A DNA stretch of 33,813 nucleotides from Sphaeroforma arctica JP610. Taxonomy: Eukaryota. The DNA is taken from the NCBI RefSeq assembly GCF_001186125.1, contig NW_014040537.1:200316-234128 (forward strand). Reading direction: 5' to 3'. This document shows positions 610 to 28,139 of this stretch, piece after piece; positions within the stretch are counted from its first letter, which is position 1, and the number at the start of each line of letters is the position of its first letter. Below the pieces are notes generated by a model. It saw only the letters and a program-made list of their open reading frames with translations, did not search any database and was not told where the DNA came from. The position numbers and the translations under genes are program-made.

Positions 610-618
610 GAGGTAAGG

Positions 619-911
619 GTGTCTGACTCGGATAGGAGCTTCATATTTGTTACCACGATTGGAGCAGTGATGGCAATACAAGACCCATTGCTGACGTCAG
701 ACAACCGAGTCTATATTCAAGTACAAATCAACGGACGAACGTTCAAAGCCTTGATAGACACGGGAGCAAATAGAAGTTGTATCTCACAGACATCCGCAGA
801 CCTCCTTGGCCGACCAATAACTCCGGCACCACCTGGGTCATTTATATATTTAGCTGACAAGGCGGTGCGAACTCCTCGACTGGGGACGACGGAAGTGGTA
901 CCTATAAGGAT
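619..911 (+). pseudogene. Retropepsin aspartic protease of Gypsy 1, C-terminal part missing
   Basis: VQINGRTFKALIDTGANRSCIS. The downstream ILGxD-type motif seen in Gypsy 2 (ILQGMD) is absent. Confidence 0.9.
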
Positions 912-1390
912 TTGGAAGCCAATGCGAAAATTGCCGACAACGCGCGCTGTCGTCTGGAAGGGAGTGAGGTAACCATCCCAGTAACCCATGAACAAGCGTT
1001 GCAGATGCGGAGATCGACGCGTCACTTCGTATCCGATCGATGGCTCCCCTATGTGGATGAACAAGGGAAGAAGTGGTTGACGGATTTGGTGATTGCGAAA
1101 CGAACGACACCAACGACTGTTAATCTTCCTCTCCTTGCGGTACCGACATTTGATGCGGAAGGCAACGTCAAGAAGGAGTTGATAGGTGATCGTTGGAAGG
1201 AGAGACATGCACAGGCGTGGCAGGCAATGAAGGACGCAGTGGTGAATGCTGTGGCGTTACACTTTCCGGTCGACGGCATTCCTTTGAACTTGGGAACCGA
1301 CGCTAGCGATTACGGTTTAGGGGGAGCGCTATTCCAATGGGTCGACGGAGAGACAAATGTGCTCCCAGACATGTTAAGTAGAGTACACGA
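912..1390 (+). pseudogene. Fused remnants of the RT N-terminus and RNase H of Gypsy 1
   Basis: PTTVNLPLL...GNVKK joins directly to WQAMKDAV...GTDASDYGLGGALFQWVDGE, which joins directly to TNVLPDMLSR. The YxDD core and the RNase H centre are absent. Confidence 0.88.
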
Positions 1391-1430
1391 GGGGACAGCG
1401 GAGCAGGACGAACTCGAAATAATGTATACA

Positions 1431-1835
1431 GACGGCTGGCAGTTATTCCCTAGTTACTTTGAACAAGCGCAACAACACTTTGGACCGAATGACATAGATG
1501 TACTGGCGGACCCAACCAATGCTCAGCTTCCTCGGTTCTGGACGAAGGATGATGGGGGAAGGAGCGTTTGCCCACGACTGGTCGATAGTCGATGGATGGA
1601 TGAACCCGCCTTGGGAACAGATACACAGGATGTTACGCAAAATACGAGCCGACGGCGCACGGGCCACAGTATGTCTACCATGGGTACCAAGAGCACCATG
1701 GTTCGACCTGTTCAAGCAGTTATTGCAGACAGAACCGGTGCTGGTACCACGGACACCACACACGTTCCTCAAGTACGCTAAGTACGCATGTGGGAAGACA
1801 CCATGGGGTCATACCGTAGTAGCACGGGTGGGTCC
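1431..1835 (+). pseudogene. Dam-like (phage T1/HP1 Dam, PF05869-type) DNA amino-methyltransferase domain of Gypsy 1
   Basis: DGWQLFPSYFEQAQQHFGPNDIDVLADPTNAQLPRFWTKDD, then a +1 shift at G5 (1554-1558), then GAFAHDWSIVDGWMNPPW (NPPW 1603-1614)...ATVCLPWVPRAPWF...TFLK...GKTPWGHTVVARVG. Confidence 0.85.
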
Positions 1836-1954
1836 TCCCAATGGATTCAAACTGAACCCGCTGTTTTCACAGCGACTTGGTTATGCAGAACCAAAGCATA
1901 CAAAATATGTGATGTGCTTAGATACCGCGCGAGAAATCTCAGTGGCACTGGCAG

Positions 1955-2914
1955 ATGCAGAGGGTCCCGGCGTTTGCACAAGCGAGTCCGACGGAGAAAC
2001 AGCGTCGTACGCAACTCACGCAAGCGCAACACGAACAAGGACATCATGGGGCGGCGGACACAGTCCAACAACTTCGTCAGAACGGTTACGTTTGGCCAGG
2101 GGCACTTGAGTTAGCCACGGAGGTTAAGCGGCAATGTGGCACATGTTTGGGACAGGACACACTTCGTAAAGGTTTCCACCCGATGATTAGCATCGATGCA
2201 CGCTACCCGTGGGACCATATTCAAGTGGACTACATCCCGATGCCACTGGAGTCCAGACGCAAGAACAATTATATTCTTCACGTCTTAGCCATCGCCACAG
2301 GCTATTCTATCCTTCGAGCCACACCGGACAAGACAAAGGAAACCACGACACAGACACTCATAGAGATTTTTGGCGAACATGGCTTCCCCCGTAAAATCCA
2401 AACAGACATGGGGCAGGAGTTCACCAACAAGATAGTGGAGCTTCTGGTCCAGGAAGTGGGGATGCTACATAAGGTGTCTCCACCATATCGACCCCAAGTG
2501 CTGGGCGCGGCAGAACGACGTCACAAGGAGATTACACGTTCTATTCGACAATGCTGTGAGGCAGTTTCCCTTCGATGGGACGAACGCCTTCCGTTTACGA
2601 TGCTATACCAGAACCTTCGGATATCCCGTCGCCATAGGAGTGCACCGTTTAGCGTGTACTTTGGCCGCCGCCATGTTCCGTTCGCCGATTTCACAGACGA
2701 GTTACCGGATTCCCAGCCGATGACGAATGACACCTGGGCACAACGATTAGACCAGTTACAGGACACTATATTGCCGACCCTCCACCACATTACCAAGAAG
2801 TATACAGGCAAGCTTACGACGACATTTGACCGCCTGCATGCTCACGACTTGGTACATTTCGACGAAGGAGATGTGGTCATGGTACGATCAGAAGGCTATG
2901 CGGCCATTGTTTGG
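1955..2914 (+). CDS. Retroviral-type DDE integrase of Gypsy 1, open up to the N gap
   Basis: HEQGH...CGTC zinc finger. Catalytic triad in WDHIQVDY, IQTDMGQEF and GAAERRH. APFSVYFGR. Confidence 0.93.
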
Positions 2915-2994
2915 NNNNNNNNNNNNNNNNNNNNCCAACGATCGAAGAAGTGCCATCTCAGGGTACTTTGGGTCCACAACGTAAGCGGTGAAAT

Positions 2995-3235
2995 TGTTTG
3001 GACAAAATCAGCACTGGCATCATTCTGCTCAGATACAAGTACAGTTCGGTGCACAGAGGAGGATGGTCAAATGACAGGTGTCATGAGGTGTCAAATAAGT
3101 TCACCAAAATAGGTCATGCATTTATGACTTACGTGTGACTACATATGCATAGGAGATGTACATATAAAACCCTCCGTAGAGGTGTAAATAGAGTCATTCT
3201 CTACTCAGTATAGTATGGTTCTATATGTTGAAACA
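2995..3235 (+). repeat. Copia 5' LTR
   Basis: 3163-3235 aligns without gaps to 17837-17909. Ends in CA and is followed by the PBS. The start at 2995 is inferred from TG, the short terminal inverted repeat and the TSD. Confidence 0.75.
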
Positions 3236-3243
3236 GGTTATGG
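3236..3243 (+). promoter_or_regulatory. Copia-type primer-binding site (half-tRNAiMet type)
   Basis: GGTTATGG directly after the LTR-terminal CA. Matches the start of the Drosophila copia PBS GGTTATGGGCCCAG, then diverges. Confidence 0.7.
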
Positions 3244-3304
3244 ACTTCGGTTAAATTATAGATAACCTAACAAATACATAACGCAAGTATAGTAAATATA
3301 TTAC

Positions 3305-5043
3305 ATGCGACGTATTCAGAGACCATCGACGACATTCTTGATCGCAAGTTACCAAAATCACGCGTATACATACAATAACATATCATCACGGGTACTATAT
3401 AAATCATTACCATCCCCGCCTCCTACCCGTCTCTTAAAGATGCACACGAGTTTGCTGCCAGAAATTGGCCAGGTTATCCACGATACGAGGCTCTCGACAA
3501 ATATAATAGATCACTACACAGCATTCATAACCTATATCAGGAGTTCGGGTACAACCCACTCGGCATACCAGTATCAACTGGTCGTCTCCTAGCACACTTA
3601 TCCTGCGCAAGAGCAACAATCGCCCTTATTCGAGTTCGTGCAGACGCAAACGAAGACGAGACCAGAAAGTACAAACAAGGATTAGTAGACGAAGAGTACG
3701 CGCTCAATGAAGAACGTGATACTAAACGTGCGCCAATCTAGTACAAAGGAGAAATTCGCAAAATGCGAAGCTGAACTCAATAGTACACGGGCTCAACTCC
3801 GCGAAGCAGAGACATATATAGGCACAGACCAGAAACATAATCTCCGTGCTGCTGAACTGCAAGGTGAAGCGGATGGCTTACGTTCGGCGCTCAATGAGGC
3901 CAACGACCAAATTAACAATCTCAACATAGCCAACAGAGCTCCTAAACATATTGCTGAGAGATATGGCATCACTCTCATAAAGCTTGCACTCGATGTTCGG
4001 GATACACCAAAATACAAAGATGTTTACAATGGTGGGTAACTTGAGGGTTGGCGAAACTTCGGCAACTGGATCACTGGTTTACGCATGAGTTAGAACACTT
4101 TGGTGTACTTCATCGCTGTCATCCAATGTGCAACGAACGCTGCGCAGGAGGAGGATCAGACCCAGCAGCAGACTCGAAATGTCGTCGTATACTCATACAT
4201 TCTATCAGCGAACCCCTGCTCAACTCCGTGTACAAAAATTACATGATAAAAGCACCACACGTCTTCCTCGATCACATATGTGTCACCACCAATACTGGCA
4301 GTCATGGAAGATTCTAAGGCGTACTGCAGAACCTAACCAGCTTAAGTCAACGGGCTCGCCTGATACAACGCTACAAACTTTGGAGGAGATTCGCCAACAC
4401 TTGGTCGACGTCGGTGAGAACATCCCAGACTCTTCGATCACATTTGTGTCACCACCAATACTGGCAGTTATGGAAGATTCTAAGGCGCACTGCAGAACCT
4501 AACCAGCTTAAGTCAACGGGCTCGCCTGATACAACGCTACAAACTTTGGAGGAGATTTGCCAACACTTGGTCGACATCGGTGAGAACATCCCAGACAAGT
4601 ATCTAATTTGTGCCCTACTCTATAGTCTCGACGACAACTACAACATACTCCGTGTGGACATATTCGATCACGATCTGGATGCCCTCACGATCAACGAGAT
4701 CTATAAAAAGGTACTCAAGTTTGCAGGTGATATTCAGCTCGATTCTTCAACACCGGCATCCGGTCTAATGTCTATTAAATTCCCTGCCGAACGCAGTGAA
4801 AAATCCACAAACAATGATGCCAGTAATGGTAACCAGAATAATTTCACCTAACGACGCGAACGTCCCAACTGTTCTATATGTGGCAAAGCAGGACACATCA
4901 TCTTCGGATTCTCTGATTCAATCTGTCGTCGTTGCGGTTCAGCTGACCATAAGGGAAATAAATGCCCCATCGGCCGTTCTACACTATCATGCTCCAAATG
5001 CGGCAAAGGGGGCCACAATGATACAGCATGCGTGTCTAAGTGA
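3305..5043 (+). pseudogene. Copia Gag, fragmented, with a coiled-coil segment, UBN2-like core and three CCHC-type knuckles
   Basis: LEEICQHLVDIGENIPDKYLICALLYSLDDNY. After the TAA at 4849-4851: CSICGKAGH, CRRCGSADHKGNKC, CSKCGKGGHNDTAC. Start position uncertain. Confidence 0.8.
4265..4596 (+). repeat. 166-bp tandem duplication inside Copia gag
   Basis: 4265-4430 is nearly identical to 4431-4596. The period is not a multiple of 3, so it shifts the frame. Confidence 0.95.
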
Positions 5044-5293
5044 AGCCACGGGGTCCCTCGAGGCGATATTAGCACTAGCTACGATATAAATACGAAATGT
5101 TCCCAAGGACACTGATAAGTATACTTATACGGACACAATATAGTCCTACAGAACTCAAAAAGCAAAATTCCAAGGAAACATATATTCCAAATAAAGCGGA
5201 CACAAACACAGTCACAGAACACTATCGCATACAGAGTGCAATATACCAAGATGGGCCCACAGCACCACTATACTTCGCCGAGTCTCTCATTGA

Positions 5294-5540
5294 TGTAGAG
5301 TATGGAGAGTAGCTGAAAGGTACTACACAATAAGATATAATGGACCTCTTCTCAAGTACAGTTATCTCAGCTAGGAAAAGTCCCTAGTCTGAGAGAGCCG
5401 AACTGAGTCTTTCTACCGCTAATATTTCTAATGACTAATATCATAAATATTCCAATCCTAATTCCAAAACTCAGTATTTAATTATTTTGGGTTTTGGGAT
5501 TTGGATTGGCTTTTTGATAATCTGGTCCCTAGATGCTACT
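5294..5540 (-). repeat. Gypsy 2 3' LTR (247 bp)
   Basis: Direct repeat of 13677-14002 that lacks a 77-bp internal block. TGTAG...GCTACT, with the terminal CA mutated to CT. Confidence 0.93.
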
Positions 5541-5554
5541 GCCCCCCAACTCTG
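5541..5554 (-). promoter_or_regulatory. Polypurine tract of Gypsy 2
   Basis: Minus strand reads AGAGTTGGGGGGC immediately before the 3' LTR. Confidence 0.65.
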
Positions 5555-5914
5555 TGCTTCGTAGCCTGCGTAGGAGTAGAAAGTGACATCTTACAGTACT
5601 AGATTATCTAGAGGTTGGTGTTTGTATACAGGGAAAGACTTGTCCCTTAGGGGGCATAAGATGAAAAACCTGCCACCATTATCTATTACATATTACCGAT
5701 TAATTAAATTTATACTATAGCAGGAGTTCTCTAACACGCTCATCGGAGTCAGTCTTGACCGGTGCTCTCGGCTGATCTCAACCTGGCTCAGGAAAACGCA
5801 TCTCAACGGTGGCTCTACAGCTGAGGCTCTGGTCCTTGTCCTTCTGGTGTGTGGGGGGGAGCATGCTTCTAGGCGAGAAAGGTGGGAGTGTCCTGTGGTA
5901 TCAGTGAGACTTGC

Positions 5915-6388
5915 TTAGGTCCCCCGCCTCGTGCGCTGTCTGTGGATCGCTGATCTTTCATCAGTGCTCGTTGTCGCTGGCTTCTTTGGCCTGGACTGCG
6001 TTCTTTTACGTCTCCGGCGTTGACGGTATGTTGTAAAGACATCAGCATCTGCGATGTCTGATTCATGCGTCCAGGTACGCTCACCATATGTCCATTGCAG
6101 TAGGTACTCCTGGGATCCATCACCTCGGATGGACGGCCTGTTGTCAACTATCGAAGAGAACTGAGCCTCTTCTTTTGGTTGTACGTGATTGTTGGAAATA
6201 AATGCTTCCGGAGCACTGGCCCTTTTAACGAGGCCAAGTAGCTCATTAGTGATCGAGTCAGGATATTCGGGGGCTTTAGTCCCATTAAGGTTACAGACAA
6301 AATACCTGTTGCCCTCCCTGCATACCATTTTGTATGGTCCGCCATTTGGTGCTGTTAACTTGTTCATTTCACCTTGATAGCGAACCAT
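5915..6388 (-). pseudogene. Integrase C-terminus with GPY/F motif and chromodomain (about 6020-6160)
   Basis: KLTAPNGGPYKMV. FSSIVDNR...GSQEYLLQWTYGERTWTHESDI...FTTY matches the chromo pattern EYLxxW...TW. Basic tail RRRRKR. Confidence 0.82.
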
Positions 6389-6419
6389 GACAAGGTCCCC
6401 TTCCTGGAAGTTTACATAC

Positions 6420-7245
6420 TTCTTTTAGTATTTTCGATCGTATGCTGCGCGCATCTTCTCTTGATACTGTGCAACGTTGCTATTTAGTTGTGGCCTGATG
6501 GTTTCTTATAGATGTTGCAGTCGTTCTTCCCAAGATACTGTTCTACTGGATACGGTCACTGGCTCATTGTAGTCCGTGAGTTGATTCTGTCTGCGACCAA
6601 AGTACATATTAAAGCGCGGGGACTTGTGTCTTCTGGATGTATGCAGATTGTGGCCCATCTGTACGAATGGAAGTCGTGAACACCAGTTACCTGGATTCTG
6701 TTCTACGAATTTCCGTAGCAGTGGCATGAGGTCTCTGTGTGATCGTTCGTTCGCACTTAAAACTTCAGGTTGATACGGCCGAGAGACTAGGTGTTGCATT
6801 GGCACTTGTTCAACAACTTTTGAAAGTATGTTGTTAACATATTCAGTGCCTTGGTCGGTCTGTATGATTTGTGGGAATCCATGTTCACACATGATTGGTA
6901 CCAGCGTGCGTGCTATGGTAGCCGCTAATTTTTCCATCATTGGACGCAAAATGACATATGATGAGTGTACATCAAGCCATACTAACACATCTGTGTGTCC
7001 TCTGTCCTCTGTTAGAATCCAATAGTGGACCTATGGTGTCCACTTGGACTCTGTCGCCGGGATACGCGGCTGTGATTGATTGTAAGGGGTGAAATACATT
7101 TTTGTGTAAAATTATTTTTTTGAGACATGGTATACATCCGTCAATGAACTTGTGTACATGTTGTTGGATATCAACCCAATCATGGCCATCTGTTTGCAAC
7201 TTGTGTACTGTTTCCTCAGGAGTGTAATGCCCCTAATTGTGGTAT
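6420..7245 (-). pseudogene. DDE integrase of Gypsy 2, with frameshifts and stops
   Basis: YHN*GH...CIPC, DRVQVDTIGPL, IQTDQGTEY, SANERSH. Confidence 0.92.
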
Positions 7246-7375
7246 TTCTCAATGATGTTGACATGTGTCTCATATTCTGTTGCCTGTGGTGCGTCTCCAG
7301 AGTGAACTGGTTCTGACGCTGCAACGTGTATTGCAGGTTGTTCCCGCGTTGAATCGAAGTATGGAGACTTAGCTC

Positions 7376-7766
7376 CTATCTTTGCAACTAATGCGACACC
7401 CCATTGGGTCTTGCCGCAAGCCTTCTTGCCCTCTTTGAGGAACGTATTGTTTGTGTTTTCCACTAGCATCGGGTCTTCTTCTACTAAAGACAAGAACTTT
7501 AGAATCCACGAGGCATTGGGGTAACATGGTACACATATCGTGATGCTGGTTGCCTCTTCAATGACTTTGTCAAGGATATCAGGTATAAGTTCCCATGGTG
7601 GATTCGCCCATGCATTAACTTCCTGCGCCCACTTTTGTTGTAGCGCATTCTGTTCTTTGGTGTAATATTTATCTGTGTGCGCATTGTGTGCCAATGCAAA
7701 CAGGTCTACTGTGAACTTCCCAAACCTTCGTTCCGCCTCTTAATAGAATCTGGGATGTAACATCCA
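7376..7766 (-). pseudogene. Dam-like DNA amino-methyltransferase domain of Gypsy 2
   Basis: WMLHPRFY*EAERRFGKFTVDLFALAHNAHTDKYYTKEQNALQQKWAQEVNAWANPPW (NPPW 7593-7604)...ITICVPCYPNASW...TFLKEG...GKTQWGVALVAKIG. In frame with the RNase H end and the integrase start. Confidence 0.87.
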
Positions 7767-7884
7767 AACTATAGCCGATATGACTATGGACATGTTTGTT
7801 TCCAAGGTGGTGTACTCTTGGCTATTGTGTGTTGCCTCATTCGCTTTTTGTAATACTTTTGACTCTTTAATACTAAAGGTATCT

Positions 7885-8330
7885 TCATAGAGACGCGACA
7901 ACATGTCTGCCATCTGGTTGTCCTTGCCTGGGACATGTATGATGGAGAATGGTGGTGGAACGTTTACGCTATCCATTTGGCTAGCATTGGGTGTAAAGTC
8001 TGTTGACTGTTCATTTGCGTGAGCGCTTTGTGATCTGTCCACAGTGTTATGTCCCCCCTCTTTACTGTATTCGGATAAATGTTCCAGGCTGTATACCAGT
8101 GCTAGTAGTTCTTTGGTATTTGTGCCATAGTGTTGATGTGCTGGGTTCAAGCCTTTTGATAAGTAAATAATGTATCGTCTAACACTATCGATGACTTGAA
8201 ATAAACACCCTCTTATGCCATAGTCACTAGCATCGTTCATAATTTGAAACGGTACCCCATCAACAGGGTATGCTAGCGTCGCTGAACAGGCGATGGCATC
8301 TTTGAGTTCTTCCCACTTCTTGATTAGTTA
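7885..8330 (-). pseudogene. RNase H (Ty3 type) of Gypsy 2
   Basis: YPVDGVPFQIMNDASDYGI, YGTNTKELLALV, HVPGKDNQMADMLSR. Confidence 0.92.
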
Positions 8331-9130
8331 CGGTGTCCATAACATGGATATGTTCTGTTTCATTTTTCCCTTCATTAGGTTCCGAAAGTGTTTCGTTGTG
8401 TGAGCAAAGTTGGGGACATGGTCTTGCATGTAATTTGCTAATCCCACTGCTTTGTGCAGATCTCTTTTTGTTCTGGGTAGTGGCCAATCCAATATTCTTT
8501 TCTGTTTCTCAGGATCTGCTTTGAGTCCCTTTATGGTGACTTTCACCCCAAGAATGTTGACCACTTTGACCGCAAAGGTACACTTGTTGTGATTGAGTCG
8601 GAAGTTTGCGCTATTCAGTCGCTTGATTACTTCACGAACTGGTTTGCCGTGTTCTTTTTCTGTAAGACTCGCAATGACTATGTCATATATATACACTTGC
8701 ACTCCTTTGATATCTATGAGCAGATTCACCATGACTCTCTGGAATTGTGCTGTGAGTGAGTGTAGTCCAAACGGCGCGGACTTGAATACCTTGTAGGTCG
8801 TGCAACACTTCCTTTATTTTTGGTAACACAAAATTGTCCTGATCGATCTCCCGTAAGTCTAGACATGTCCTGACTTTCTTAAATAGACCCGTTTGGTCAT
8901 GTTCACCTGTTGATAACAACGGCAGGTTTACCGTTGTGGGCTTGTCGCGTTTGTATATTTGGCCATCTTTAAGCCATCGTTGCACATTCTCGTCCGTTTG
9001 CGGAATGTATTTGTGCGGAACAAAGTTGAGTTTAGCGTGCCCCATTTGTCTGACGTTGATTTTATTTGCAGGTACCGTGACTGTGGAGCCTGGTAGGTTG
9101 CAGTGAACATCAGGAGGTATATTCGCAATG
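8328..9130 (-). pseudogene. Reverse transcriptase of Gypsy 2, decayed
   Basis: KKVRTCLDLREI, APFGL, VYIYDIVI (YxDD mutated), LNHNKCTF, VGLANY. Confidence 0.92.
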
Positions 9131-9259
9131 GTATTCAGGAGGTCTGTAAGTGACTCTCTGAAACCTTCTTGTTCATGCTCTTGGTCTTCTTCATGTGGTG
9201 TGAGAAGTGATTCCCATTTTACATCTGTCGGTATGAGTGTGTTGATTAACCCTGCTATG

Positions 9260-9565
9260 TATAAACCTATGTATGGTAAAATGTCCATACCTTGAAGTAT
9301 TTGTCTTTTTGTCTGGCAAGTCCAATACTTCAAAGCACTGAGAGGTCTTCATCCATCCATAGTTATTGTCACAAAATTATGTTGATCCAGTGCGTTGTAT
9401 TCTTGCATCTGTTTGTGCTAGTTGTATATACCCAGGTTACACTCTAACAGACAGGTATAGTTCTGAAACTACACTTTTGTCCATGCATGAGCGTTGTGCC
9501 CCTGAGTCTACTAGTACATTGTATGTATTGCCATTGATTTGTATATCAATGTGTAAACGTTGGTC
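9260..9565 (-). pseudogene. Aspartic protease of Gypsy 2 (not in the ORF track)
   Basis: Manual translation gives RLHIDIQINGNTYNVLVDSGAQRSCMD...ILQGMDIL, with internal stops. Confidence 0.88.
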
Positions 9566-9875
9566 TCGTGGTGCGGGAAGTAAAGATAAAGGTTGATAAT
9601 TTATATCATTTGCATTTATTTACAACGTTTCTTCATCTGTAAATACATTGAGTCTGCCAGTCAGGTTAATCATGTTCGCTTCCGCCCACCAGTGTTTTCA
9701 GNNNNNNNNNNNNNNNNNNNNNNNNNNNNNNNNNNNNNNNNNNNNNNNNNNNNNNNNNNNNNNNNNNNNNNNNNNNNNNNNNNNNNNNNNNNNNNNNNNN
9801 NNNNNNNNNNNNNNNNNNNNNNNNNNNNNNNNNNNNNNNNNNNNNNNNNNNNNNNNNNNNNNNNNNNNNNNNNNN

Positions 9876-10958
9876 TAGTGTCACAGACGCCGTTCTTATG
9901 TGTGTCTCAGTCATAGTACAAAACTTGGTATGTTCTATGTCAAACAGATGTCCTTCACTTCCATCAGGTTGCTTGTCTCCTTTGATTAAGAGGTCCACTA
10001 TTGATTTTAGTACATAGTACTTAAGTGCTAGGTACCATTGTACTTTGAGGATTTGGAAGTGTATGGGTTCCTTGTATGAGCTGCGGTATCCCTCCTGTAG
10101 CATCGCTATTGTCTTGTGCACATGCTCTGTGCGCACTTCGACGTTCATCTTCTTATTCTGCATGTCATTGAGAAACTTCTCCAATAGATAGTCTACTGGG
10201 TGTGATCTGAGTCGATCAATAATGATTCTATTGAACTGTTCGGGATCAGTGAAGTGCCTAGTTGTTTGTGTCTCAGAGTCTCTTATGTTTTTGACTACTG
10301 CTTTGGTTTTCTCCGTTTCATCAGTGGAATCTAATAGTCTTCTCACTAGTGCTGGATACTGACACAATGGCATTGACGTAGCTAAGAATAGATCACTACA
10401 TTGTGTAGTGAGCTCTATGATGTCCTCACAATTTTCCAATCTAAAGAAGCTATCCTTCGGCATCTTTGGAAATTCTGAGGTCTTGAGTAATTTCTTAAGA
10501 AATGATTCGTTATCGGATCGCCTAAACGTGAACGCATGAGCTCTAGCTCACTAATGTACAGACTGATTTGGATAAGTTTGTCTTCCTCATCATCACCGCA
10601 ATCGTCGATCGCTTGGCCAAATCGTCGTTTGAGCTCCGCATCTACTAGTGGCTGCGACGCTGGCTGTTGATCATGTATGCCTACTCTCATTTTGTGCAGA
10701 GTTAGTATGGGCACCGGTGCTGTTTGTTCCAATTTGGATACAAACCGTCTCACCAGAACATGATTGCCGTGACAGATACTCTTGTCTATGTCTAGACGCA
10801 TTGCTGACGCTGCGATGGGTACCCCCGCCGGTGTAGGCTGACCCGAACTAATGCCTGGACTTGCCTCCCCCATTGGGCTGACTCTAACGTTACCCGCGCC
10901 TTCACTACCTTCCCCCACTATTGTACACGCTTGTTCTGGTTGCTGTTGGCATTTTCAT
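9876..10958 (-). pseudogene. Gag of Gypsy 2, frameshifted, 3' part in the N gap
   Basis: Two overlapping minus-strand ORFs (10415-10918, 9666-10463) directly upstream of the protease. Assigned by position only. Confidence 0.65.
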
Positions 10959-11508
10959 AAGTCTGTGTTGTTGTGTGGGTGTTAGTGGATTATTACTAAA
11001 GACTCTGGTTATGTTTTGTGCGAAAGTGCGCACTTCACCCATCCCTCTTTAGTAATAAGTCAACATTTTGTTTTGTTTTGGATTTATGTTACTTACTTTT
11101 TATGTTGTTGTTGCTTTGCTGCACTTCCGCAGGAAGTGTTTACCTTGCTGTATGGTTCGGTAGCTTGTTGCGTTGTCCCCTATATTTATGAGGGGTGAAA
11201 TTGGTGTTTGTTAGTCAAGCTTATTCCGTCACCTGTGACGTCACTTGTGCGTATTTAGTCACGTGAGAACGTATTGTCACTAGTGTTATTTCGTCGTGTG
11301 AGAAATTATTTTCTCATGTGATCTTAATGAGATGTTCGGTCTTAGTGACGTCACCTGGAGGAGTTCGGTCCTGGTGATGTCACCTAAGAATTCCGGTCCC
11401 ATCTCTGACTGTGATTCAGTCACTTGTGTAAGTTCGGTCCTATTTCGAACCGTGATCTTTACCTTATTGTTTGTGGCGGGCCGCAAGGTTCGAACAGGCT
11501 CTTGTCGT

Positions 11509-11701
11509 GCTTGATTTAGGCGTGGTTGTACCCTTGTTTCTGTGATCAATAGGTGTGATTTCTTCCTGGTGAGTGTATGTGTCTCGAAGATCACTTAGAT
11601 GTTTTGTGTTAGGCTTGATTTAGACGTGGTTGTACCCTTATTCCTGAGATCAATGGGTGTGATTGCTTCTTGCTGAATGTATATGTCTCGAAGATCACTT
11701 A
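11509..11701. repeat. Tandem repeat, period 104 bp, in the Gypsy 2 leader
   Basis: GCTTGATTTAG...CTCGAAGATCACTTA at 11509-11597 and 11613-11701. Confidence 0.9.
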
Positions 11702-13676
11702 TATAGAATGCGTTACGCCTAGACACGGCTGACACGGCTCTTAGATGTCGGATCTAGCGTGTGCTAGTCTGTGTGTTGCGTGTCTCAATTGCTGACATTA
11801 CTGTTGGGTGTTTGTTGCACTCGTGTATCACATATGATTTGGCTGTGTGGCCTTGTGCATGTGCTTCCTTTTATTTTTGAACTAATTGTTCTTGTGTTAT
11901 TGACGAATGTTTTATTCTTGCCTGATTGTCGTGATTTGACTGATATACGTTAGTATTATCTTGTCGATGTCCCCATTCCTCAATTTGACACAAAATGTGT
12001 CAGGAATGTTTTTGGGTTATCAGTTATGGTTCTAATGTTTTGTTGTTGATCACTAGAATATTCGTTCTCGAGTGTTTTCGCATTTGTATTTGTCGTGCTA
12101 TCGTGATATAGTATTTGTCTTGTTTGATTTCTAATAATGTCCTACTCATAAACTGATGACCATCAATGTAATTGATACTCCTAATTTGAATCGTTCTGAT
12201 TCAGGAGTCCATCTGCTTGTGTCTTTGTTTACTCGTCTATTTGTATGTTTATTATTATCTTATAATCACCTTAGTTATTCAATACTACAGAAATACATGT
12301 GGCTCAGCCTGTGTCCCCGGGTTTGATCAGTGCCTCTTTTTGTTGAATATGATCGATTTGAGGACCCTTTTTGTGACTTGTGGCTGTGCGTCTATGTATT
12401 ATTTGTGTGGTGTAAACGCTTGTTGCACTAGTTATTGTTAAGTGACATGTAAAACAGTATAATGCTACTTTTCCAATGTAATCGATTGTCAGATCCTCTG
12501 ATATTTGAAAATCCTCTGGATGATTTGTGGCGTTATGTCTCTCTATTCTTTGTATGGTGCCTTTACTCAGCGTTTGTTATTTTGGGTGCTTTCCCACGTT
12601 ATGCAGGTCTATGGTTTGGATCACTTGTCTAACATTTAGCGCTTTAGTACCCAGTATGTGCTTCCTTGATCAGATCGCTATGATTCCTGACCTATGTGTG
12701 CTCATGCGTTGTGAATTTGTATATACGACAACTTGTTTCAGTTGGTTGTTGTAGCTACTTATATGTTTGTGATTGTAAGTCACTGTAGATGGCTGTTGTT
12801 TGTGTGTGGCAGTCCATCGATCTGATTTATCTCGTGTCTCTGTGAGATTGAAATTTAATGTTGGTGCAATATTCGATATCTGCGATCTTTACTCTATGCG
12901 GTGTGTTTTACAAGGTGTGAATGCTTTGTTATGGTTTGTGTGTGCCGATTGTGCGTATATGCATTTGTCTATGCTTTCATAGTGTGTATGTATACGTTTG
13001 TTTATGTATTCATAGTTGTTCTGAATTGGCGGTGTTGTTTGTTCTGTGGCTGCTGCTATTGCTTTGTATATGAAAACTGAGTAAAATAGCTAGTGTCTTT
13101 TTAGTGCACATTGCATAAGGTTATTTTCTTGTTCGAAAACCTATAAAAATCTTCTAGTTGATGAAATGATCACTGTGACGGCTTATGCCTTTTTCACTGT
13201 TTTAGCCTTCCTATCTAGCAACTCTTCACTGAATCGCGTTACACTGAGATACCCTCTTCCACAGTATATGTTTGTGAACACGTTATTATCACCTGTGTAT
13301 CCTGAACACCATATTCATATACGTTACAGTTGTATACGCGCTTATTTGCCTTGCTTGTCTTTCTTCTTCGTATCGCAAGTTGCACGTTTCACTTCTTGTT
13401 TCTTCGTGTACACCCTGTTATTAATTTCTGTTTGTTGGAAGTCTTCAGTCCTGTTCTCCTTTTCGATCCGAGTCTTCTCTGCTTCCTTGTTGACACTTCT
13501 CTGCTGGTCCAGGCCTCTTCTCTCTGTTATTGTTACTACTCGTTGGATAGTTCTAATGAAGTTTTGGTTTTTGAGTTGGCCTTGCCAAAGCACCTGATGG
13601 GTTAATTCCCACTTGCTTTCCTCTTAATCGTAGAGTGTAAGTTGTTAGACTTATCTAGTAAGGATATTGTAAAAAA

Positions 13677-14002
13677 TGTAGAGTATGAAGAGTAGCTGAA
13701 AAGAACGAGACAATAGGATACAGTAAACCTCTTCTCAAGTACAGTTATCTCAGCTAGGAAAAGTCCCTAGTCTGAGAGAGCCGAACTGAGTCTTAATTTG
13801 TGTTTTCACTAGACTCGGGATTTACTCGAGTATTTATCTCACACGCGGGAGTCCCGGTGTATCTGACCGGTTCTACCGCTATTATTTCTGATGACTCTAA
13901 TATCAGAAATATTCCAATCCTAATTCCAAAACTCAGTATTTGATTATTCTGGGTTTTAGGATTTGTATTGGCTTTTTGATAATCTGGTCCCTATATGCTA
14001 CA
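13677..14002 (-). repeat. Gypsy 2 5' LTR (326 bp)
   Basis: TGTAG...CTACA terminal inverted repeat. Direct repeat of 5294-5540. Confidence 0.95.
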
Positions 14003-14320
14003 TTGGTTCAGGCGCTATGATTCATATATTTTACACTACCAATAGTGATACAAATATCCAACGCGGCAACTTCATAGTCGAATTTCCGGACAAGTCTCAA
14101 AACGCTGAAAGAGCGGGGCACGCTTCCGGGATTAGGCCAACTACTTATCATGCCACAAGCAACGCAAAACATACTATCTGTCCGATTAATGCAACGCAGC
14201 GGTTTCGACGTCAACTTCCCAGCGCAGGCAAACGATACGCTACCTACAGAGTGCCGCATCACAGATCGAACAGGCCAGAAGCATACCATCCCAGACGTGA
14301 GCGGACAATACAAGATTTCC
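14003..14320 (+). pseudogene. Copia aspartic protease, 3' part (5' part ends at 5293)
   Basis: Removing Gypsy 2 and one TSD copy restores ESLIDSGAMIHIF. Later YHA/MP..TQNILSVRLM corresponds to the Copia V.YVP...NLLSV motif. Confidence 0.85.
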
Positions 14321-14419
14321 ACTTGTACGACCCGCACCCTAGCCGAATCCACGCAAAACGAGGCCAACCCTTGCGCAAAAAAAAACATCGACATATATGT
14401 AGCTAAAAGCGAGAACACA

Positions 14420-14845
14420 GACAACGGGAAGTTCCACCCTGATCTCGTTCAGAAACACGTCGTCGAGCCATTCGGCGCAGTATATATTGATTTACTTGCC
14501 TGTATAAACAATGCACAAGTTGCAAACTATTGCAGTTTAGTGGAGGGTGCACCACTTTACGATGTCTATAAACAGTCCTGGAACCAAGTGAGAGTCCATC
14601 TATATGGGAACATACCGTTCACCAAAAAGCATTGGTCTGCCACACTCAACAACCTGGAAGCAGAAAGCGGCATAGTTACTGTCGTATTTCCTTTAGCTCC
14701 CAGAAACAAGTGCTACCAACGAACACTGAAACAGTTACACTCACAGGTGGAAGGTGTACGCATGACACCTGCTACATTTCTTCGTAACGGCTCCGAAGTG
14801 GTCGGTCTACCAACGTGGAGATACATATGTGTTGCCCGATTAGGT
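14420..14845 (+). CDS. Dam-like DNA amino-methyltransferase domain of the Copia element (inside open frame 14150-15148)
   Basis: DNGKFHPDLVQKHVVEPFGAVYIDLLACINNAQVANYCS...DVYKQSWNQVRVHLYGNIPF (14609-14620)...VTVVFPLAPRNKCY...TFLRNG..VGLPTWRYICVARLG. Collinear with both Gypsy MTases. Confidence 0.8.
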
Positions 14846-14899
14846 AATACCAAACACGCCGTACCTCTGACAGCTAATCTGCTCACAGCCCAAGACGGT

Positions 14900-15720
14900 G
14901 TCCTCGCCCACCTTACTGATGAGTGCTTTTGCTCTACCTGTGTATCCTGCAAGACGCGTCGTCGGCTCATTTCAAACAAACTCAAGGATCCTGAGATTCG
15001 GCCACCACCGGGTACTGTATTTCATTTTGGCCTCGAAATTGGCTTGACACCCTCAGCAACAGGTTGCACTTCTAACATCAAATTTGTTGACGCCAACAGT
15101 GCAGTGCTCTTTTCTTACCCCACTCGAGTCCGAGGATGGGGCCGCTGAGACACTCGACATGTTTTATACTTGACTCGGGAAAGAGAAACTCGCCAAGCTT
15201 GAGGAGTTGAAGTGCGATAGAGGAGGGGAGTTCAACTCTAAATAATCTAAGGCAATCAATACTGTGGAACACGTCAAAGTCCCATACACATCTACTAACT
15301 CGCCAGCACTTCATGGTTTGGTGGAGCGTATGAATGAGGTAATCGTGGATTTGATGCGTGACTTTCTAGACCGTTCGGGTCAGCCTGAAGAGACCTGGCG
15401 AGAGGCCTTACGCTAGGCAACACTAACACAAAATATCAGTCGCAACGATCGGAATCCTGATAGTAAATCCGCTTGGGATATCTTTTACGGCGAAATCCCT
15501 GACAAACGACTTAAACACATGCACGTATATGGCTGCCAAGTGGCCTTCATCAACCAGGACCCCGAGAACAAACTAGACGACAGAGCCACACTTGGGGGGT
15601 ATTTTAGGCACGACACCGACTCTAAATAATACTATGGTGAGTGTAGAATTTTCAGCGTCAAGCCGGGCCGTGTATGCCATTCTAGATATGTCAAATTCAA
15701 CGAACGCGTATTTCCCACTT
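14900..15720 (+). pseudogene. Copia integrase, decayed
   Basis: CSTCVSCKTRR, FVDANS, LKCDRGGEF, SPALHGLVERMN, TWREAL, HMHVYGC, KLDDRA, by manual translation across stops. Confidence 0.92.
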
Positions 15721-16699: not shown

Positions 16700-17520
16700 A
16701 CCCCTTGTAAATCCAATAAAAAGGCTCTCCGTGGCGGTGATGCTGCTCCGTGGCGCAAAGCAATCGAACGTGCGTTAAGCAGCCTTAATAAGTCGGGCAC
16801 CTACGACTTGCTCAAACCGGACGAAATACCAGATGACGCCTTCATTATAGCTAGCAAGTGGGTATTCAATGTAAAAATGATCGACGGGCTGGTGGATAAA
16901 TAAAAAGCACCGATTTGCTTCACGCAAACCCAAGGCGTTAACTACGACGAGACATTTGCTCCTAGTGTTCACACGAGACACTCAGAACGGTATCAGCGGT
17001 GTTTGCAGCGCTAACCTCGACGAATCAACTTATATACGTCCACCGAAAGGTCCTAGCGCCGTTGGTATACGGCTTAAAACAGTCAGGACGGCTCTGGCAT
17101 GCCCTAATCAAATCCAAGCTTCTAGGCATGGGGTTCAACCAGAGTGCATCGGATACTTGCATGTTCATCATAGCCGAAGCGGACTTTTCGTGCATCGTCT
17201 TACTCTACGTTGACAACTTTATTGTTTCCGGCAAGCGGGAATGCGATGTACAACACATCAAGGCCCCACTTCAGAAAGAGGTTAGTTGTAAGGATGCGTG
17301 TACTCACAGCGGAAGATTCTATAAGCCTCGTGCAGGATAAATACGTGACTGAAGCGCTAGCGACATTCGATCTCAGCGACGCACATACAGCCCCAACTCC
17401 AGCCACACTGAATGTAGTATACGGCTCATGAACGCCACCAATGCTCCTACCGCGAGTTGATCGGAACCCTTCAGTATAATCTTTCGATGCTCACTAGGCC
17501 TGATATCTCATCTCCGTTGA
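16700..17520 (+). pseudogene. Copia reverse transcriptase, decayed with deletions
   Basis: WRKAIERALSSL, SKWVFNVK, QTQGVNYDETFAP, VYGLKQSGRLWH, LLYVDNF (YVDD mutated), TRPDIS. Confidence 0.93.
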
Positions 17521-17545
17521 ACTTACACAGAACGCACCTACCCCG

Positions 17546-17830
17546 TTGCACTGCGACAATCAGTCGGCCATACACGTCATTGACGACACAGGCACAAATA
17601 AGCACCTAAAACATGTAGATATCCGTATCCACCACATACGGGATCTTAAAGACCAGGGTGTCATCTGCACTACGTATGTCAAGACACTTGACAATACAGC
17701 TGACATATTAACCAATAACACAGCTCGGCCAACACATTCTCGCCATACCAACTCAATGCTCTCAGCCTTTCCCAATCCTCTAACCAAAGCAACCGGCAAC
17801 AATCTAAGGAAGAAACAGGCCGCTACATGA
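17546..17830 (+). pseudogene. Copia RNase H C-terminal part
   Basis: HCDNQSAI, KHVDIRIHHIRD, YVKTLDNTADILT. Confidence 0.93.
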
Positions 17831-17836
17831 GCTCAC

Positions 17837-17909
17837 TATAAAATCATCCATAGAGGTGTAAATAAAGTCACTCTCCACTTATTATATTATGGTTCTATAT
17901 GTTTAAACA
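17837..17909 (+). repeat. Copia 3' LTR remnant (3' 73 bp)
   Basis: Aligns to 3163-3235. The upstream part of the LTR and the PPT are missing. Confidence 0.85.
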
Positions 17910-18327
17910 TAAATTTCGTCCACAGCAGTTGTAGTGACGGGGTTTTTTTAGCATGACCTAAGTTTCGGTATGTCTCGAGGTGAGAAGTAATAACATATTC
18001 TACAGAGTTTACTCTGACATATGTTGAAGACAACTCGGTAAAAGAGCCTGATTACCAATAATCATGCTGGAGTTGCTCACTTAATTATCTTATCAAGATG
18101 ATTAAGGGAGCATCCTCTCAGCAGAATCAATTTTGGTATTCAGACTCGTTCACCGAGCTCGTCTTATGTATTTAAGTCAAAATTGTACTAACGTATTATA
18201 TATCTTAAACCCTTCTCGTCCGCACCCGCTCACCCTCAGCAGTTATCATCTTATATCCTTTATAGGATGTACAAGCGTAGGCATATCCCAGTATATAACA
18301 TATTTATTGACAATCAATAGCGGTTAT

Positions 18328-18525
18328 CAAACACCGCCTGAAAAGTCACCTAGTGGTTTCAAACACCGCTAAACACAGGTATCGTTTGACTCTCGCAGCG
18401 ATAAACCATCCGTAGATGGCGTCTCTAGGGCCTCACACATAGTTTACGCTTGGCACCGACTTCGTCGAGACGAACCTTGAGGCTAGATACAAACCCTATA
18501 GCCTTCGATTATCAAACTGTAACTA
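18328..18525 (+). repeat. Dispersed ~200-bp repeat, copy 1
   Basis: Similar to 22764-22985. Flanked by a 40-bp direct repeat (18266-18305, 18566-18605). Confidence 0.88.
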
Positions 18526-18861
18526 GCGAGGTATTTTCCAAATAAAACTATTTAAAACTTTAGATGATGTAGAAGCGTAGGAATGTCCTAGTATATAACA
18601 TATTTCTTACTGAAACCGTAACCCTTTTTTAAGTCCCTGTCGACATTGTCACCGATTTCTTGTCCGTCGCCAACAAACGTCTGTGACGCTCCCCCCCCCC
18701 CCCCGGGGCTAGAATGTATTTTGCCCATTTGAGATCCTTCACAAAATAATCAATAGGCCCAAATGAGTTTTTGCCGTTTGGCTTTCAGTCCCCGCGGCGT
18801 CCCAGCCGTGTTTTATTGATAATCAATACGAATAATATTAATTATTTCAAAGGAGATAGGT

Positions 18862-19088
18862 TACAATATACGTACATATGGTATAGCTCTCATAGCCGTT
18901 GTAGTGGTTCGGGGAAGATCGATGGGGAGAAGTGAACAGTAAATTCCCGTTAAGCTGGGGCCAAGTGAGTCGACGATGGAGGATATGCGCTGGGTCATTT
19001 CAGGCCGGCGCTTACAAAAACCCGACACCATCGACTTTGCCGCGTATTCGATTGCTGACCTACTAAGTAGTGTACCCACCTCTGTGGT
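18862..19088 (-). repeat. Dispersed ~225-bp repeat, inverted relative to 25878-26106
   Basis: Both copies translate to EVGTLLSRS..EY...SMV..FC...PE.TQ.IS.IVD.LGPS...MRAIPYV. Confidence 0.85.
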
Positions 19089-19479
19089 ACGGATCAGGTC
19101 TGCACCGTGTAGTGTCGTGGAATGGGTTAGTGCAGAGTACGAAATGCCGAGTAGGACCAGGTTATCCGTCATAATTCTTGAGGAGCAAGGTTGGGGGTGA
19201 ACCGATGTCGCACCAGACCACGGATGCACTCGGTATGTGCTGGTTGGCCTAAATTGGAAGTATCATAGGCGAAACCAACAGGTGCGATGACTTGGTTTGG
19301 ACCGGAATTTGGAAGTAGTACCTCGACAGCGTGATTAGCCGGGGTATAGGAACATCTGTTGATGTGTCAGAGACGGGTGTAGAAACGAGGGCTATTCTAC
19401 AGGCCGGAGAAAGGATCCAAGGTGTTCGTGGAGGGTCCAGATACCGTGGAAATTGTGGCGCTCCCGTGATTGCTGGGAG

Positions 19480-21424: not shown

Positions 21425-22259
21425 GGCGATATTGACGCATTCGAGTAATTAAGCGCTTAGGTTAAGTCTAAGTATAATCAAATTCGAAATAAATAAACGA
21501 AATTAGTTTTTAGTAAAGTTAGGTATGCCCCGTGAAAACAGCAATACTCTGAGGTATTGTGAGGCTGAGACATTGCCTATATATAATCCTCTCAGTACTG
21601 TTTTCGCCGAAGGGATTCTATTTAGTGTTTCGTTGTCGCTCTATTAGAAACTATGGTATATTTCGTTGGGGCGAATCCGAGAGACTTGTAAAATCCTATC
21701 TTTAGAAAAATGAAAAGAAAAAAGAACAAAACTCATGACGTCCATAGTCATTGCATTAACCAATAACTTGCCACTTATCAAGAATTACCGACTTTGCCTT
21801 CATCAGACTGGCACATCTGGTTGGCTGAACGGAGGATAAACTAAGCAACGCTAATAGTCCTTAGAAACCTATGTTCGGCTGAGCCATCTCGCTACCAAAG
21901 TATTCAGACAAATAGATTTGGAAAGTAAAAATAGTTCTATCAATAGAACTAGACCAAATCTTATGTTTGGTATTTTACTGGAGCCTTTTAATGGCCTTGT
22001 CCAAGGATCTGATATGTAAAATGGAAAAGGTATTTAATTAATAAAAACCGTTAAAAACCATTTAAGGAAAACTTAAGTTTACGTACTTTTAAGAGTACGT
22101 GTTACGTACTATTAAGAGTACGTTTATATTACAAGATTCTAATGTGGAGGCCCGGCTTTTACAGTACGGGTTTGTAGAATTGAATAGGTCCTCAAACTAG
22201 TCAGTGAGGGTGACGCCTTTGTTATCGGCACCCGGTAGGCAGGGTAGGCGCGGAGATAG

Positions 22260-22763
22260 TCGTTGGCACACAATATCTTTGAACATTTGAGTATCACTTT
22301 GGGCGGTCAGACGTGGGTGGAACGAGTGGTTTGGCAGCCGTTGGACCCAAGGTCAGTTTATTTCGTAGTAGAATCTCCCGAAGGTTTGTGGGTTAGCGAC
22401 ATAGCGCCAGATGCGGTCGAGGATCCGTAGCAGCCCTTTTGCTGGACTGTGTAAGGTGAGATACGACCGTAGTAGGTTCTGACGCGCTCGGATTTTGGCT
22501 TGGATTTTGTTGCGTAGGTGATAAAGTCGATGGCGGTATCGGTTGTATACATGAGAAGGAAGACGTTGGTCAGGAGGCGGCGGCATTGCTGGCATTTGTT
22601 GGGACTGATGGATTTGTTCCGTTGGAAGTACCTGGAGATCGAGTCCAAAGGTGTGGTCACCACAGATACCGTAGTCCGTCAGCTTGTAGGTCTGGAGGGA
22701 GGTGGGGGTGGTAGGCCGGTGATGCATATGTTCTGTGCCAGTTGAGCCGCCAGCATCGGTTCC
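22260..22763 (-). pseudogene. Possible second non-LTR C-terminal fragment
   Basis: GC-rich patch with NKCQQCRRLLT and composition like 19480-21424. Weak evidence. Confidence 0.3.
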
Positions 22764-25850: not shown

Positions 25851-25877
25851 CGCCGCATGTCATAATTCAGGTGTCCT

Positions 25878-28083: not shown

Positions 28084-28108
28084 GGTTAGCCGCGCGTGCG
28101 TGCTCGCT

Positions 28109-28139
<31 letters not shown>

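What the first reader, a model, noticed from the sequence alone, without database searches (positions are those of the whole stretch)
1431..14845. One Dam-like DNA methyltransferase family fused upstream of integrase in both Gypsy and Copia LTR retrotransposons
Seen: three distinct elements each carry a collinear ~135-aa domain (1431-1835 +, 7376-7766 -, 14420-14845 +). The shared pattern is FG..x(I/V)DxxA...NA....(Y/F)...W....N(P/I)P(W/F)...T(V/I)xxP...TFL+...G...W....VA+xG. Gypsy has RH-MTase-IN and Copia has PR-MTase-IN, so the only constant neighbour is the integrase N-terminus. Established: this motif order matches phage T1/HP1-type Dam (PF05869). A similar MT domain is known after RNase H in DIRS tyrosine-recombinase retrotransposons, but it is not a standard part of DDE-integrase LTR elements. 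Inference: an MTase-integrase module was swapped between, or captured separately by, two superfamilies in one host. It may methylate cDNA or target DNA (6mA or 4mC) during integration, to protect it or to license expression. I cannot confirm from the sequence whether this is already published.
Basis: partly seen in the sequence, partly recalled or inferred. Interest (0 to 1): 0.93.

Follow-up and report, generated by a model that had tools for sequence, protein, structure and literature searches.

The report
Methylase planted inside Copia integrase
Three broken jumping genes here carry a phage-like adenine-methylase domain; the two Gypsy-type copies match a design described in a 2026 preprint, but the Copia-type family has the domain sitting inside its integrase's zinc-finger region, a layout we did not find described, which would likely carry the domain to each new insertion site.

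Summary
All three domains are homologous PF05869-type N6-adenine methyltransferase-fold domains, in two decayed Ty3/Gypsy elements and one decayed Ty1/Copia element. The Gypsy half is known: RH-Dam-IN 'DAM-LTRs', including an ichthyosporean lineage, are in bioRxiv 10.64898/2026.05.21.726589, and this scan met Gypsy versions on other DNA. The Copia half is not in that preprint's main text (0 'copia'). It is family-wide: 6 of 7 Sphaeroforma arctica relatives carry part of the domain, at least as conserved as protease, and a relative's model has an amino-methyltransferase fold. In Copia the domain lies inside the integrase zinc-binding region: the His pair precedes it (3 relatives), the CxxC follows it (window, 2 relatives). 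In Gypsy it precedes an intact H2C2. The integrases are superfamily-typical, so no MTase-integrase module was swapped; the domain moved alone. Catalysis is unshown: the motif is NIPF/NPIW, and the preprint's E. coli assay was negative. No intact copy and no second host were found. New variant of a known kind.

The parts
610..2914 (+). Gypsy element 1, decayed: PR, RT largely deleted, RH remnant, Dam-like domain, integrase; cut by an N gap at 2915-2934
   Evidence: Pfam gag-asp_proteas 4.9e-9, RT_RNaseH_2 3.8e-10, rve 1.7e-10; six-frame reading
1431..1836 (+). Dam-like domain of element 1, frameshifted near 1556; NPPW at 1603-1614
1997..2149 (+). Complete H2C2 zinc finger of element 1 integrase, wholly downstream of the Dam-like domain
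   Evidence: PF17921 E 1.3e-6; His pair 2030, CxxC 2135
4089..5294 (+). gag and first residues of the protease of the Copia element (element 3), separated from the rest by the nested element 2
   Evidence: PF14223 E 8.4e-6; P0008 aligns both here and at 14002-14425; flank reads ...ESLI up to the LTR
5295..5539 (-). 3' LTR of Gypsy element 2 (internally shorter copy), next to a purine tract
   Evidence: 92% identical to 13676-14001; pairing with element 2 is inferred from position, termini and purine tract
5915..10547 (-). Gypsy element 2 coding region, decayed: gag-like ORF, PR, RT, RH, Dam-like domain, H2C2, integrase core, weak chromo-like tail (6020-6151)
   Evidence: Pfam RVT_1, RT_RNaseH_2, Dam, rve; Chromo E 0.03; collinear with intact P0009
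7374..7766 (-). Dam-like domain of element 2, one in-frame stop; NPPW at 7604-7593
   Evidence: PF05869 E 1.3e-14, TIGR01712 E 3.7e-12, phage Dam hits
13677..14003 (-). 5' LTR of element 2 (TG...CA ends); the LTR pair interrupts the Copia protease catalytic motif
   Evidence: many contig ends fall at 14002-14003
14004..14300 (+). Rest of the Copia protease (SGAxxH half-motif; frameshift near 14100)
   Evidence: aligns with P0006, P0007, P0008; frames
14300..14419 (+). Position of the integrase His pair in relatives; degenerate in this copy (an HAKRGQ stretch in another frame at 14350-14367 may be its remnant, not established)
14420..14845 (+). Dam-like domain of the Copia element, open and in frame with the protease C-terminal part and the integrase; NIPF at 14609-14620
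14930..14941 (+). CxxC of the integrase zinc finger, about 28 residues after the Dam-like domain
   Evidence: same place in P0004 and P0007
14990..15740 (+). Copia integrase core and SH3-like part, with a frameshift and stops
   Evidence: 58% to P0003; PF25597 E 4.4e-4
16700..17764 (+). Copia RT and RNase H remnants
   Evidence: RVT_2 E 1.2e-11 at 17062-17301; RH recognised by recalled Ty1-type motifs only, no Pfam hit
17837..17909 (+). Purine tract and start of the Copia 3' LTR (inferred); 86% like 3163-3235

Best explanation
A Ty1/Copia family carries the same Dam-like methyltransferase-fold domain as the host's Gypsy DAM-LTRs, inserted between the His pair and the CxxC of its integrase zinc finger, so the mature integrase would carry the domain, which likely puts N6-methyladenine on the new cDNA copy so that the host keeps it transcribable. 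Shown: homology, position, conservation across diverged subfamilies, superfamily-typical integrases, and a predicted amino-methyltransferase fold for a relative. Inferred from established Ty1 biology (recalled): protease cuts Pol into PR, IN and RT-RH, so a domain inside the integrase N-terminal region cannot be cut away without breaking the finger, and it would be in the particle and on the cDNA ends. Inferred from the preprint's model: the mark is read and maintained by host AMT1. The domain probably came alone from another retroelement (Gypsy or DIRS); the direction is unresolved. All three copies in this window are dead.
For: Family-wide: 8 hits among 1.84 billion representatives; 7 are S. 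arctica proteins, and 6 of those 7 hold part of the domain. His pair before the domain in P0003 (WHDRLGH), P0006 (HARFGH; PF13976 E 0.064, ending where the domain starts) and P0007. CxxC after it in P0004, P0007 and the window; both in one protein in P0007. Three non-identical contigs bridge the domain's 3' end to the CxxC. Among the closer subfamilies the domain is 40-62% identical (one near pair 76%) against protease 33-46% and the integrase core 58%. A phage-only profile finds P0007 (E 9e-10) and P0002 (2e-5). The model of P0007 has pLDDT 76-95 per block over 190-350, and its best matches are CAPAM/PCIF1 (Z 8.9, rmsd 3.1, 132 aligned), KsgA and Erm. NIPF also stands in an intact Gypsy polyprotein, P0009, and NIPY lines the active site of Erm (PMC9386465). 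The preprint reports more 6mA and expression on S. arctica DAM-LTRs.
Against: No activity data. The preprint's E. coli expression of eukaryotic DAMs gave no 6mA, and Iyer et al. judged DIRS copies likely inactive (PMC4738411). The canonical NPPY/F/W motif is altered in every Copia copy where it is whole (NIPF twice, NPIW once). P0007's domain is only 23-27% identical to the other Copia domains, below its protease identity (33-35%). The window copy has lost a clear His pair, and in its 5' part 16 of 19 listed codon differences from other copies change the residue, as expected for decay. The relatives are annotated gene models that may splice over breaks. The model's CxxC region has pLDDT under 50, so it does not show a re-formed finger. 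The best structural matches are RNA methyltransferases, tied within 1 Z unit. No intact element was seen. The preprint's 6mA data concern families picked by its Dam hits, not this Copia family.
Confidence: 0.45

Rival explanations
1. The domain is kept as a non-catalytic nucleic-acid or SAM binder (pseudo-methyltransferase) that helps the integrase hold cDNA, read adenine or 6mA at the target, or mimic a host factor.
For: Altered motif IV in all whole Copia copies. Negative E. coli assay. DIRS copies called likely inactive and possible PCIF1 mimics. Earlier scan notes report conserved Gypsy domains without the motif (unchecked).
Against: The catalytic Asn and a following aromatic are kept in window, P0002, P0007 and P0009, and the DLFA-type stretch aligns with phage Dam. 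N-I-P-aromatic is the active motif in Erm.
Confidence: 0.27
2. The domain methylates RNA (the element's own genomic RNA, its cap-adjacent adenine, or the RNA strand of the hybrid) inside the particle, like PCIF1/CAPAM.
For: The top Foldseek and VIA matches are CAPAM, then KsgA and Erm. Iyer et al. place DIRS MT in the PCIF1 clade. RNA specificity would explain the negative E. coli DNA assay.
Against: Sequence kin are phage DNA Dam enzymes. M.TaqI and T4 Dam lie only 1.2-1.4 Z lower. Lodging inside integrase fits a DNA substrate better (inference).
Confidence: 0.15
3. The domain is a tolerated passenger: a chance recombination product that spread without selection on the domain.
For: All copies seen are broken. 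The 5' part of the window copy differs mostly by residue changes. No formal dN/dS could be computed.
Against: The domain is in frame and at the same site in subfamilies whose proteases are only 33-46% identical, and it is usually more conserved than the protease. At its 3' end 5 of 5 listed codon differences are silent.
Confidence: 0.08
4. One reading: a whole MTase-integrase module was exchanged between Gypsy and Copia.
For: The domain neighbours the integrase start in both superfamilies.
Against: The Copia integrase is Copia-type (PF13976-like His pair, PF25597, recalled core motifs) and barely matches Gypsy integrases. The insertion point differs.
Confidence: 0.03

Closest known systems
DAM-LTR retrotransposons, Ichthyosporean lineage (Fernandez-Moreno et al., bioRxiv 10.64898/2026.05.21.726589; whole main text read, supplements not seen)
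   Same: PF05869-type domain in DDE-integrase LTR elements of Sphaeroforma arctica and relatives; elements 1 and 2 have Ty3/Gypsy organisation with the domain before the integrase; NPP motif.
   Different: All lineages described there are Ty3/Gypsy-like or DIRS, classified by RVT_1; 'copia' occurs 0 times. Element 3 is Ty1/Copia, has NIPF and carries the domain inside the integrase zinc finger. Element 2 has a weak chromo-like tail (E 0.03), whereas that lineage is said to lack chromodomains.
MT domain of DIRS tyrosine-recombinase retrotransposons (Muszewska et al. 2013, PMC3783388; passages read)
   Same: Detected by Dam PF05869; lies after RNase H, as in the Gypsy elements here.
   Different: DIRS lack aspartic protease and DDE integrase; both are present here. 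No DIRS sequence was in my trees.
Phage T1-type Dam, PF05869 / TIGR01712
   Same: Collinear motifs from the N-terminal W through DLFA to NPPY/W and the following strand.
   Different: Stand-alone phage enzyme; the retroelement domains form their own clade (100/98) and have a different C-terminal part.
PCIF1/CAPAM clade of N6-adenine methyltransferases (Iyer et al. 2016, PMC4738411; passages read)
   Same: Best structural match of the Copia relative's model (Z 8.9, rmsd 3.1, 132 aligned).
   Different: CAPAM is a cellular cap-specific RNA enzyme with WW and helical domains; 13% identity; KsgA and Erm tie within 1 Z.
DNMT-bearing retrotransposons (de Mendoza et al. 2018, PMC5890265; search listing only)
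   Same: A retroelement that captured a DNA methyltransferase.
   Different: C5-cytosine enzymes, a different family, in other hosts.

Membership tests
DAM-LTR (Ty3/Gypsy) - elements 1 and 2 | Dam PF05869 domain in the pol region | tested here: met
   E 1.3e-14 (element 2) and 0.0036 for the N-half (element 1)
DAM-LTR (Ty3/Gypsy) - elements 1 and 2 | Ty3/Gypsy order PR-RT-RH-IN with RVT_1 and DDE integrase | tested here: met
   element 1 lacks most of RT
DAM-LTR (Ty3/Gypsy) - elements 1 and 2 | Asn-Pro-Pro catalytic triplet | tested here: met
   NPPW at 1603 and 7604
Ichthyosporean DAM-LTR lineage - elements 1 and 2 | Branches in that clade and lacks a chromodomain | tested here: inconclusive
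DAM-LTR as published - element 3 | Ty3/Gypsy-like RT (RVT_1) and organisation | tested here: not met
   RVT_2 E 1.2e-11 downstream of integrase, Copia gag
Ty1/Copia - element 3 | Order gag-PR-IN-RT-RH with RVT_2 | tested here: met
Ty1/Copia - element 3 | Contiguous HHCC (gag-pre-integrase) zinc finger | tested here: not met
   His pair and CxxC are about 200 residues apart in P0007 (155 and 355), with the domain between
Ty1/Copia - element 3 | Two matching LTRs with target-site duplication | tested here: inconclusive
   Only 73 bp match at 86% between 3163-3235 and 17837-17909, both preceded by a purine tract
PF05869-type / eukaryotic DAM family - Copia domain | Profile match to Dam | tested here: met
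   Relatives E 1.2e-5 to 0.0054, all below Pfam's cut-off, window copy none; phage-only profile E 9e-10 for P0007; retroelement clade 100/98
PF05869-type / eukaryotic DAM family - Copia domain | Amino-methyltransferase fold | tested here: met
   Model of relative P0007: all 11 best VIA rows are methyltransferases (one annotated putative), Z 8.1-8.9; the window copy folded alone failed (pLDDT 32)
PF05869-type / eukaryotic DAM family - Copia domain | Asn-Pro-Pro catalytic triplet | tested here: not met
   NIPF (window, P0002), NPIW (P0007); P0003 and P0006 break at the motif
Active N6-adenine DNA methyltransferase | SAM-dependent methyl transfer to adenine in DNA | not testable with these tools
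   Needs biochemistry or modification-aware reads
DIRS retrotransposon | Tyrosine recombinase, no protease or DDE integrase | tested here: not met
   Protease and DDE integrase present in all three elements

The most novel reading that the evidence does not exclude
A Ty1/Copia lineage has built a working adenine methyltransferase into its integrase: the zinc finger re-forms around a looped-out enzyme, and the intasome itself writes the host's 'active gene' mark on each new copy. That would extend DAM-LTRs to the second LTR superfamily and give the cleanest case of a methyltransferase that must travel with the integration complex.
Probability: 0.35. Interest if true: 0.8.

Novelty: new variant of a known kind. 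Interest (0 to 1): 0.58.

Why it matters
The 2026 preprint leaves open where and on what the retroelement Dam domain acts, and whether it acts at all. In Gypsy it lies between RNase H and integrase and could go with either after cleavage. In this Copia family it lies inside the integrase N-terminal domain, which would tie it to the integration complex and gives one protein to assay. It also shows the domain crossing into the second LTR superfamily, in a form that Pfam cut-offs and RVT_1-based screens tend to miss, so some of the preprint's 46% 'orphan' domains may be Copia and others may be undetected.

Tried and rejected
No host genome was held, so no genome-wide count, intact-copy search or dN/dS. 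Word-index protein searches found nothing (the last covered only 691-2000 aa). Searches for Copia-type or NIPF-type domains elsewhere found nothing: metagenomes and viral contigs. These use few exact patterns and do not show absence; eukaryotic genomes could not be searched. Two alignments were too diverse for pattern search. A profile comparison on a misaligned set was uninformative (probability 4.5). No PDB sequence match. The single-sequence fold of the window domain failed. The Atlas gave Dam only as a lead for the window domain and a Dam-named structural row for P0007. Idea that the His-to-Cys spacer was duplicated on both sides of the domain: no similarity in 9 of 9 pairs, dropped. Short window pieces around the His pair and CxxC gave no PF13976 hit. 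Direction of transfer: Copia domains nested among Gypsy domains in one tree but not when half-length rows and T1-type phage rows were left out; neither group is rejected as a clade (p-AU 0.09-0.16), and no DIRS was included. No RNA holder was listed on record, so expression is untested. Contig depth was not used as a copy number. The complex predictor, wanted for the two zinc-finger halves, was not available.


Full report
Observation. Domain 1 (1431-1836 +) is split by a frameshift near 1556; its first half scores Pfam Dam E 0.0036. Domain 2 (7374-7766 -) has one stop and scores E 1.3e-14; 209 phage records match it, and 24 of the 25 rows listed are annotated Dam or DNA methyltransferase. Domain 3 (14420-14845 +) is open, reads NIPF and has no Pfam hit. 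It matches domain 2 at 25% over 124 columns (E 6e-9), and 0 of 2000 shuffles reach that score. A profile from 6 non-window retroelement domains, 5 of them Copia relatives, finds the three domains and nothing else above 0 bits in the window.

Anatomy of the window. The region is a nest of dead elements. Element 1 (610-2914 +) is Ty3/Gypsy with most of RT deleted. Element 3 is Ty1/Copia: gag at 4089-4851, then PR, IN, RT (RVT_2 E 1.2e-11) and RH from 14004 to about 17800. Two 92%-identical repeats, 5295-5539 and 13677-14003, bracket element 2 (Gypsy, minus strand); I read them as its LTRs from their ends and a purine tract. They cut the Copia protease motif, whose halves read ...SLI on the left and SGAxxH on the right, with near-matching 4-5 bp flanks. 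Relative P0008 aligns to both sides. So gag and the downstream genes are one Copia element.

What is already known. A search found bioRxiv 10.64898/2026.05.21.726589; I read its whole main text but not its supplements. It describes five DAM-LTR lineages, one in Pirum, Abeoforma and Sphaeroforma arctica with Ty3/Gypsy organisation, and claims the first such domains in non-DIRS LTR elements. It reports more 6mA and expression on those elements, and no activity in Dam-deficient E. coli. Elements 1 and 2 fit this. It classifies by RVT_1 and contains 'copia', 'Ty1' and 'PF07727' 0 times. Supplementary trees could still hold Copia-derived domains among its 46.1% orphans. Further searches and passages of PMC3783388, PMC4738411, PMC6338049, PMC12477816, PMC13269885 and PMC12695648 showed no Copia element with this domain; the library lacks most subscription papers. 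Six earlier scan notes shown were all Gypsy. One note describes a Copia with DNA-methylase-like cargo in a dinoflagellate-like genome, compared there with cytosine enzymes; I did not check it.

Is the Copia domain a family trait? A full search with the Copia frame 14078-15145 gave 8 hits. Seven are S. arctica JP610 proteins; one, P0009, is an intact metagenomic Gypsy polyprotein PR-RT-RH-Dam-IN-chromo with NIPF. The host is therefore probably Sphaeroforma or a near relative (inference). Of the 7, four score Pfam Dam below the curated cut-off (E 1.2e-5 to 0.0054), two hold the 3' half by alignment, and one ends where the domain starts. In public contigs of two runs, two non-identical records cover the 5' part and three bridge the 3' end to the CxxC (16 of 49 pieces shown). 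Among window, P0002-P0006 the domain is 40-62% identical (P0004-P0005 76%; P0003's frameshifted 3' tail aside), protease 33-46% and the integrase core 58%; the distant P0007 is 23-29% in the domain and 33-35% in protease. Of 134 variant places, 40 were listed and I used the 37 inside 14420-14913: 16 of 19 codons in the 5' part change the residue, 0 of 5 at the 3' end and 3 of 9 just after it. That is no dN/dS; it fits decay of this copy on top of a conserved family.

Where the domain sits. In Gypsy elements 1, 2 and P0009 the whole H2C2 finger follows the domain. In Copia it does not. P0003, P0006 and P0007 have the Copia His pair (WHDRLGH, HARFGH, HRSEGH) about 25-30 residues before the domain, and PF13976 matches P0006 weakly up to the domain's first residue (E 0.064). 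The CxxC comes about 28 residues after the domain in the window, P0004 and P0007. P0007 has both, at 155 and 355. In P0006 and P0007 a lone Cys stands three residues before the domain's first aromatic, as if the insertion fell at a CxxC; this is a guess. The window copy has no clear His pair, and the relatives are gene models, so the order should be confirmed on genomic DNA. Integrase cores match within superfamily and barely across. The module-swap reading fails; the domain moved alone.

Fold and motif. A phage-only profile (19 of 79 stop-free IMG/VR hits plus 3 T1-type Dams) finds P0007 at E 9e-10, P0002 at 2e-5 and the window copy at 6.0 bits against a best shuffle of 5.9. The model of P0007 is confident over 190-350, moderately so over the His-pair segment, and poor over protease and CxxC. 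Foldseek ranks CAPAM/PCIF1 first (E 3.7e-4), then KsgA; VIA gives CAPAM Z 8.9, KsgA 8.8, ErmC' 8.1, M.TaqI 7.7 and T4 Dam 7.5. This agrees with Iyer et al., who place DIRS domains in the PCIF1 clade and think them likely inactive. NIPF need not be dead: NIPY lines the Erm active site, and intact P0009 has NIPF. A shared fold shows no function.

Origin. Retroelement domains form one clade against phage Dam (100/98; 100/99). The window-type Copia domains pair with Gypsy P0009 in both trees (89/84, 80/83, not starred). The root inside the clade moves between trees, neither Copia nor Gypsy is rejected as a clade, and no DIRS row was available. Donor, direction and number of captures are open.

Mechanism. 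In Ty1-type elements protease releases integrase as its own protein (recalled). A domain inside the integrase N-terminal region would stay with it, in the particle during reverse transcription and on the cDNA at integration. The most likely role is to methylate adenine on the new copy so that host AMT1 maintains a permissive state, the preprint's model (0.45). A non-catalytic binder (0.27), an RNA enzyme (0.15) and a passenger (0.08) remain. Whether the split finger re-forms could not be modelled.

Verdict. Real and correctly seen. Two thirds is already described; the Copia family with the domain inside its integrase zinc finger is a new variant as far as these searches reach. It is known from one host, from broken copies only, and without evidence of activity. 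Interest 0.58.

Noticed in passing
window 24483-26704: A 2.2-kb unit with 478-bp inverted ends (96% alike; 392 bp perfect) holds a decayed Ty3-type RT-RNase H on the minus strand, with no Dam-like domain after RH; it may be a foldback capture or an assembly inversion.
   Followed up: partly
window 6020-6151 -: Element 2 ends in a weak chromodomain-like stretch (Pfam E 0.03), although the published ichthyosporean DAM-LTR lineage is said to lack chromodomains.
   Followed up: partly
window 13657-14003 and 5295-5539: This LTR-like repeat draws far more contigs and summed depth than its surroundings in four runs, suggesting a very abundant solo-LTR or MITE-like family.
   Followed up: no
window 2935-3235 +: After the N gap lies what looks like the 3' end (RH remnant, purine tract, LTR start) of another Copia related to element 3 (86% over 73 bp with 17837-17909).
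   Followed up: partly
P0009 / P0011: Intact 1208-aa metagenomic chromovirus-like polyprotein PR-RT-RH-Dam(NIPF)-IN-chromo; a good natural candidate for assaying the NIPF variant and the nearest Gypsy kin of the Copia domain in both trees.
   Followed up: partly
window 18321-22985: A 4.4-kb stretch bounded by about 230-bp direct repeats (81%), with short broken frames and no Pfam hit in the pieces scanned; probably another decayed element. 18862-19089 also matches 25877-26106 inverted.
   Followed up: no
window 27367-28164 -: A 265-aa frame with an RGS domain (Pfam E 1.8e-8), probably a host gene, beside duplicated TG-rich segments at 28033-28630.
   Followed up: no
window 10550-13680: About 3 kb between element 2's 5' LTR and its gag, with a 104-bp tandem pair at 11509-11716 and no long frame; an unusually long leader or a further insert.
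   Followed up: no
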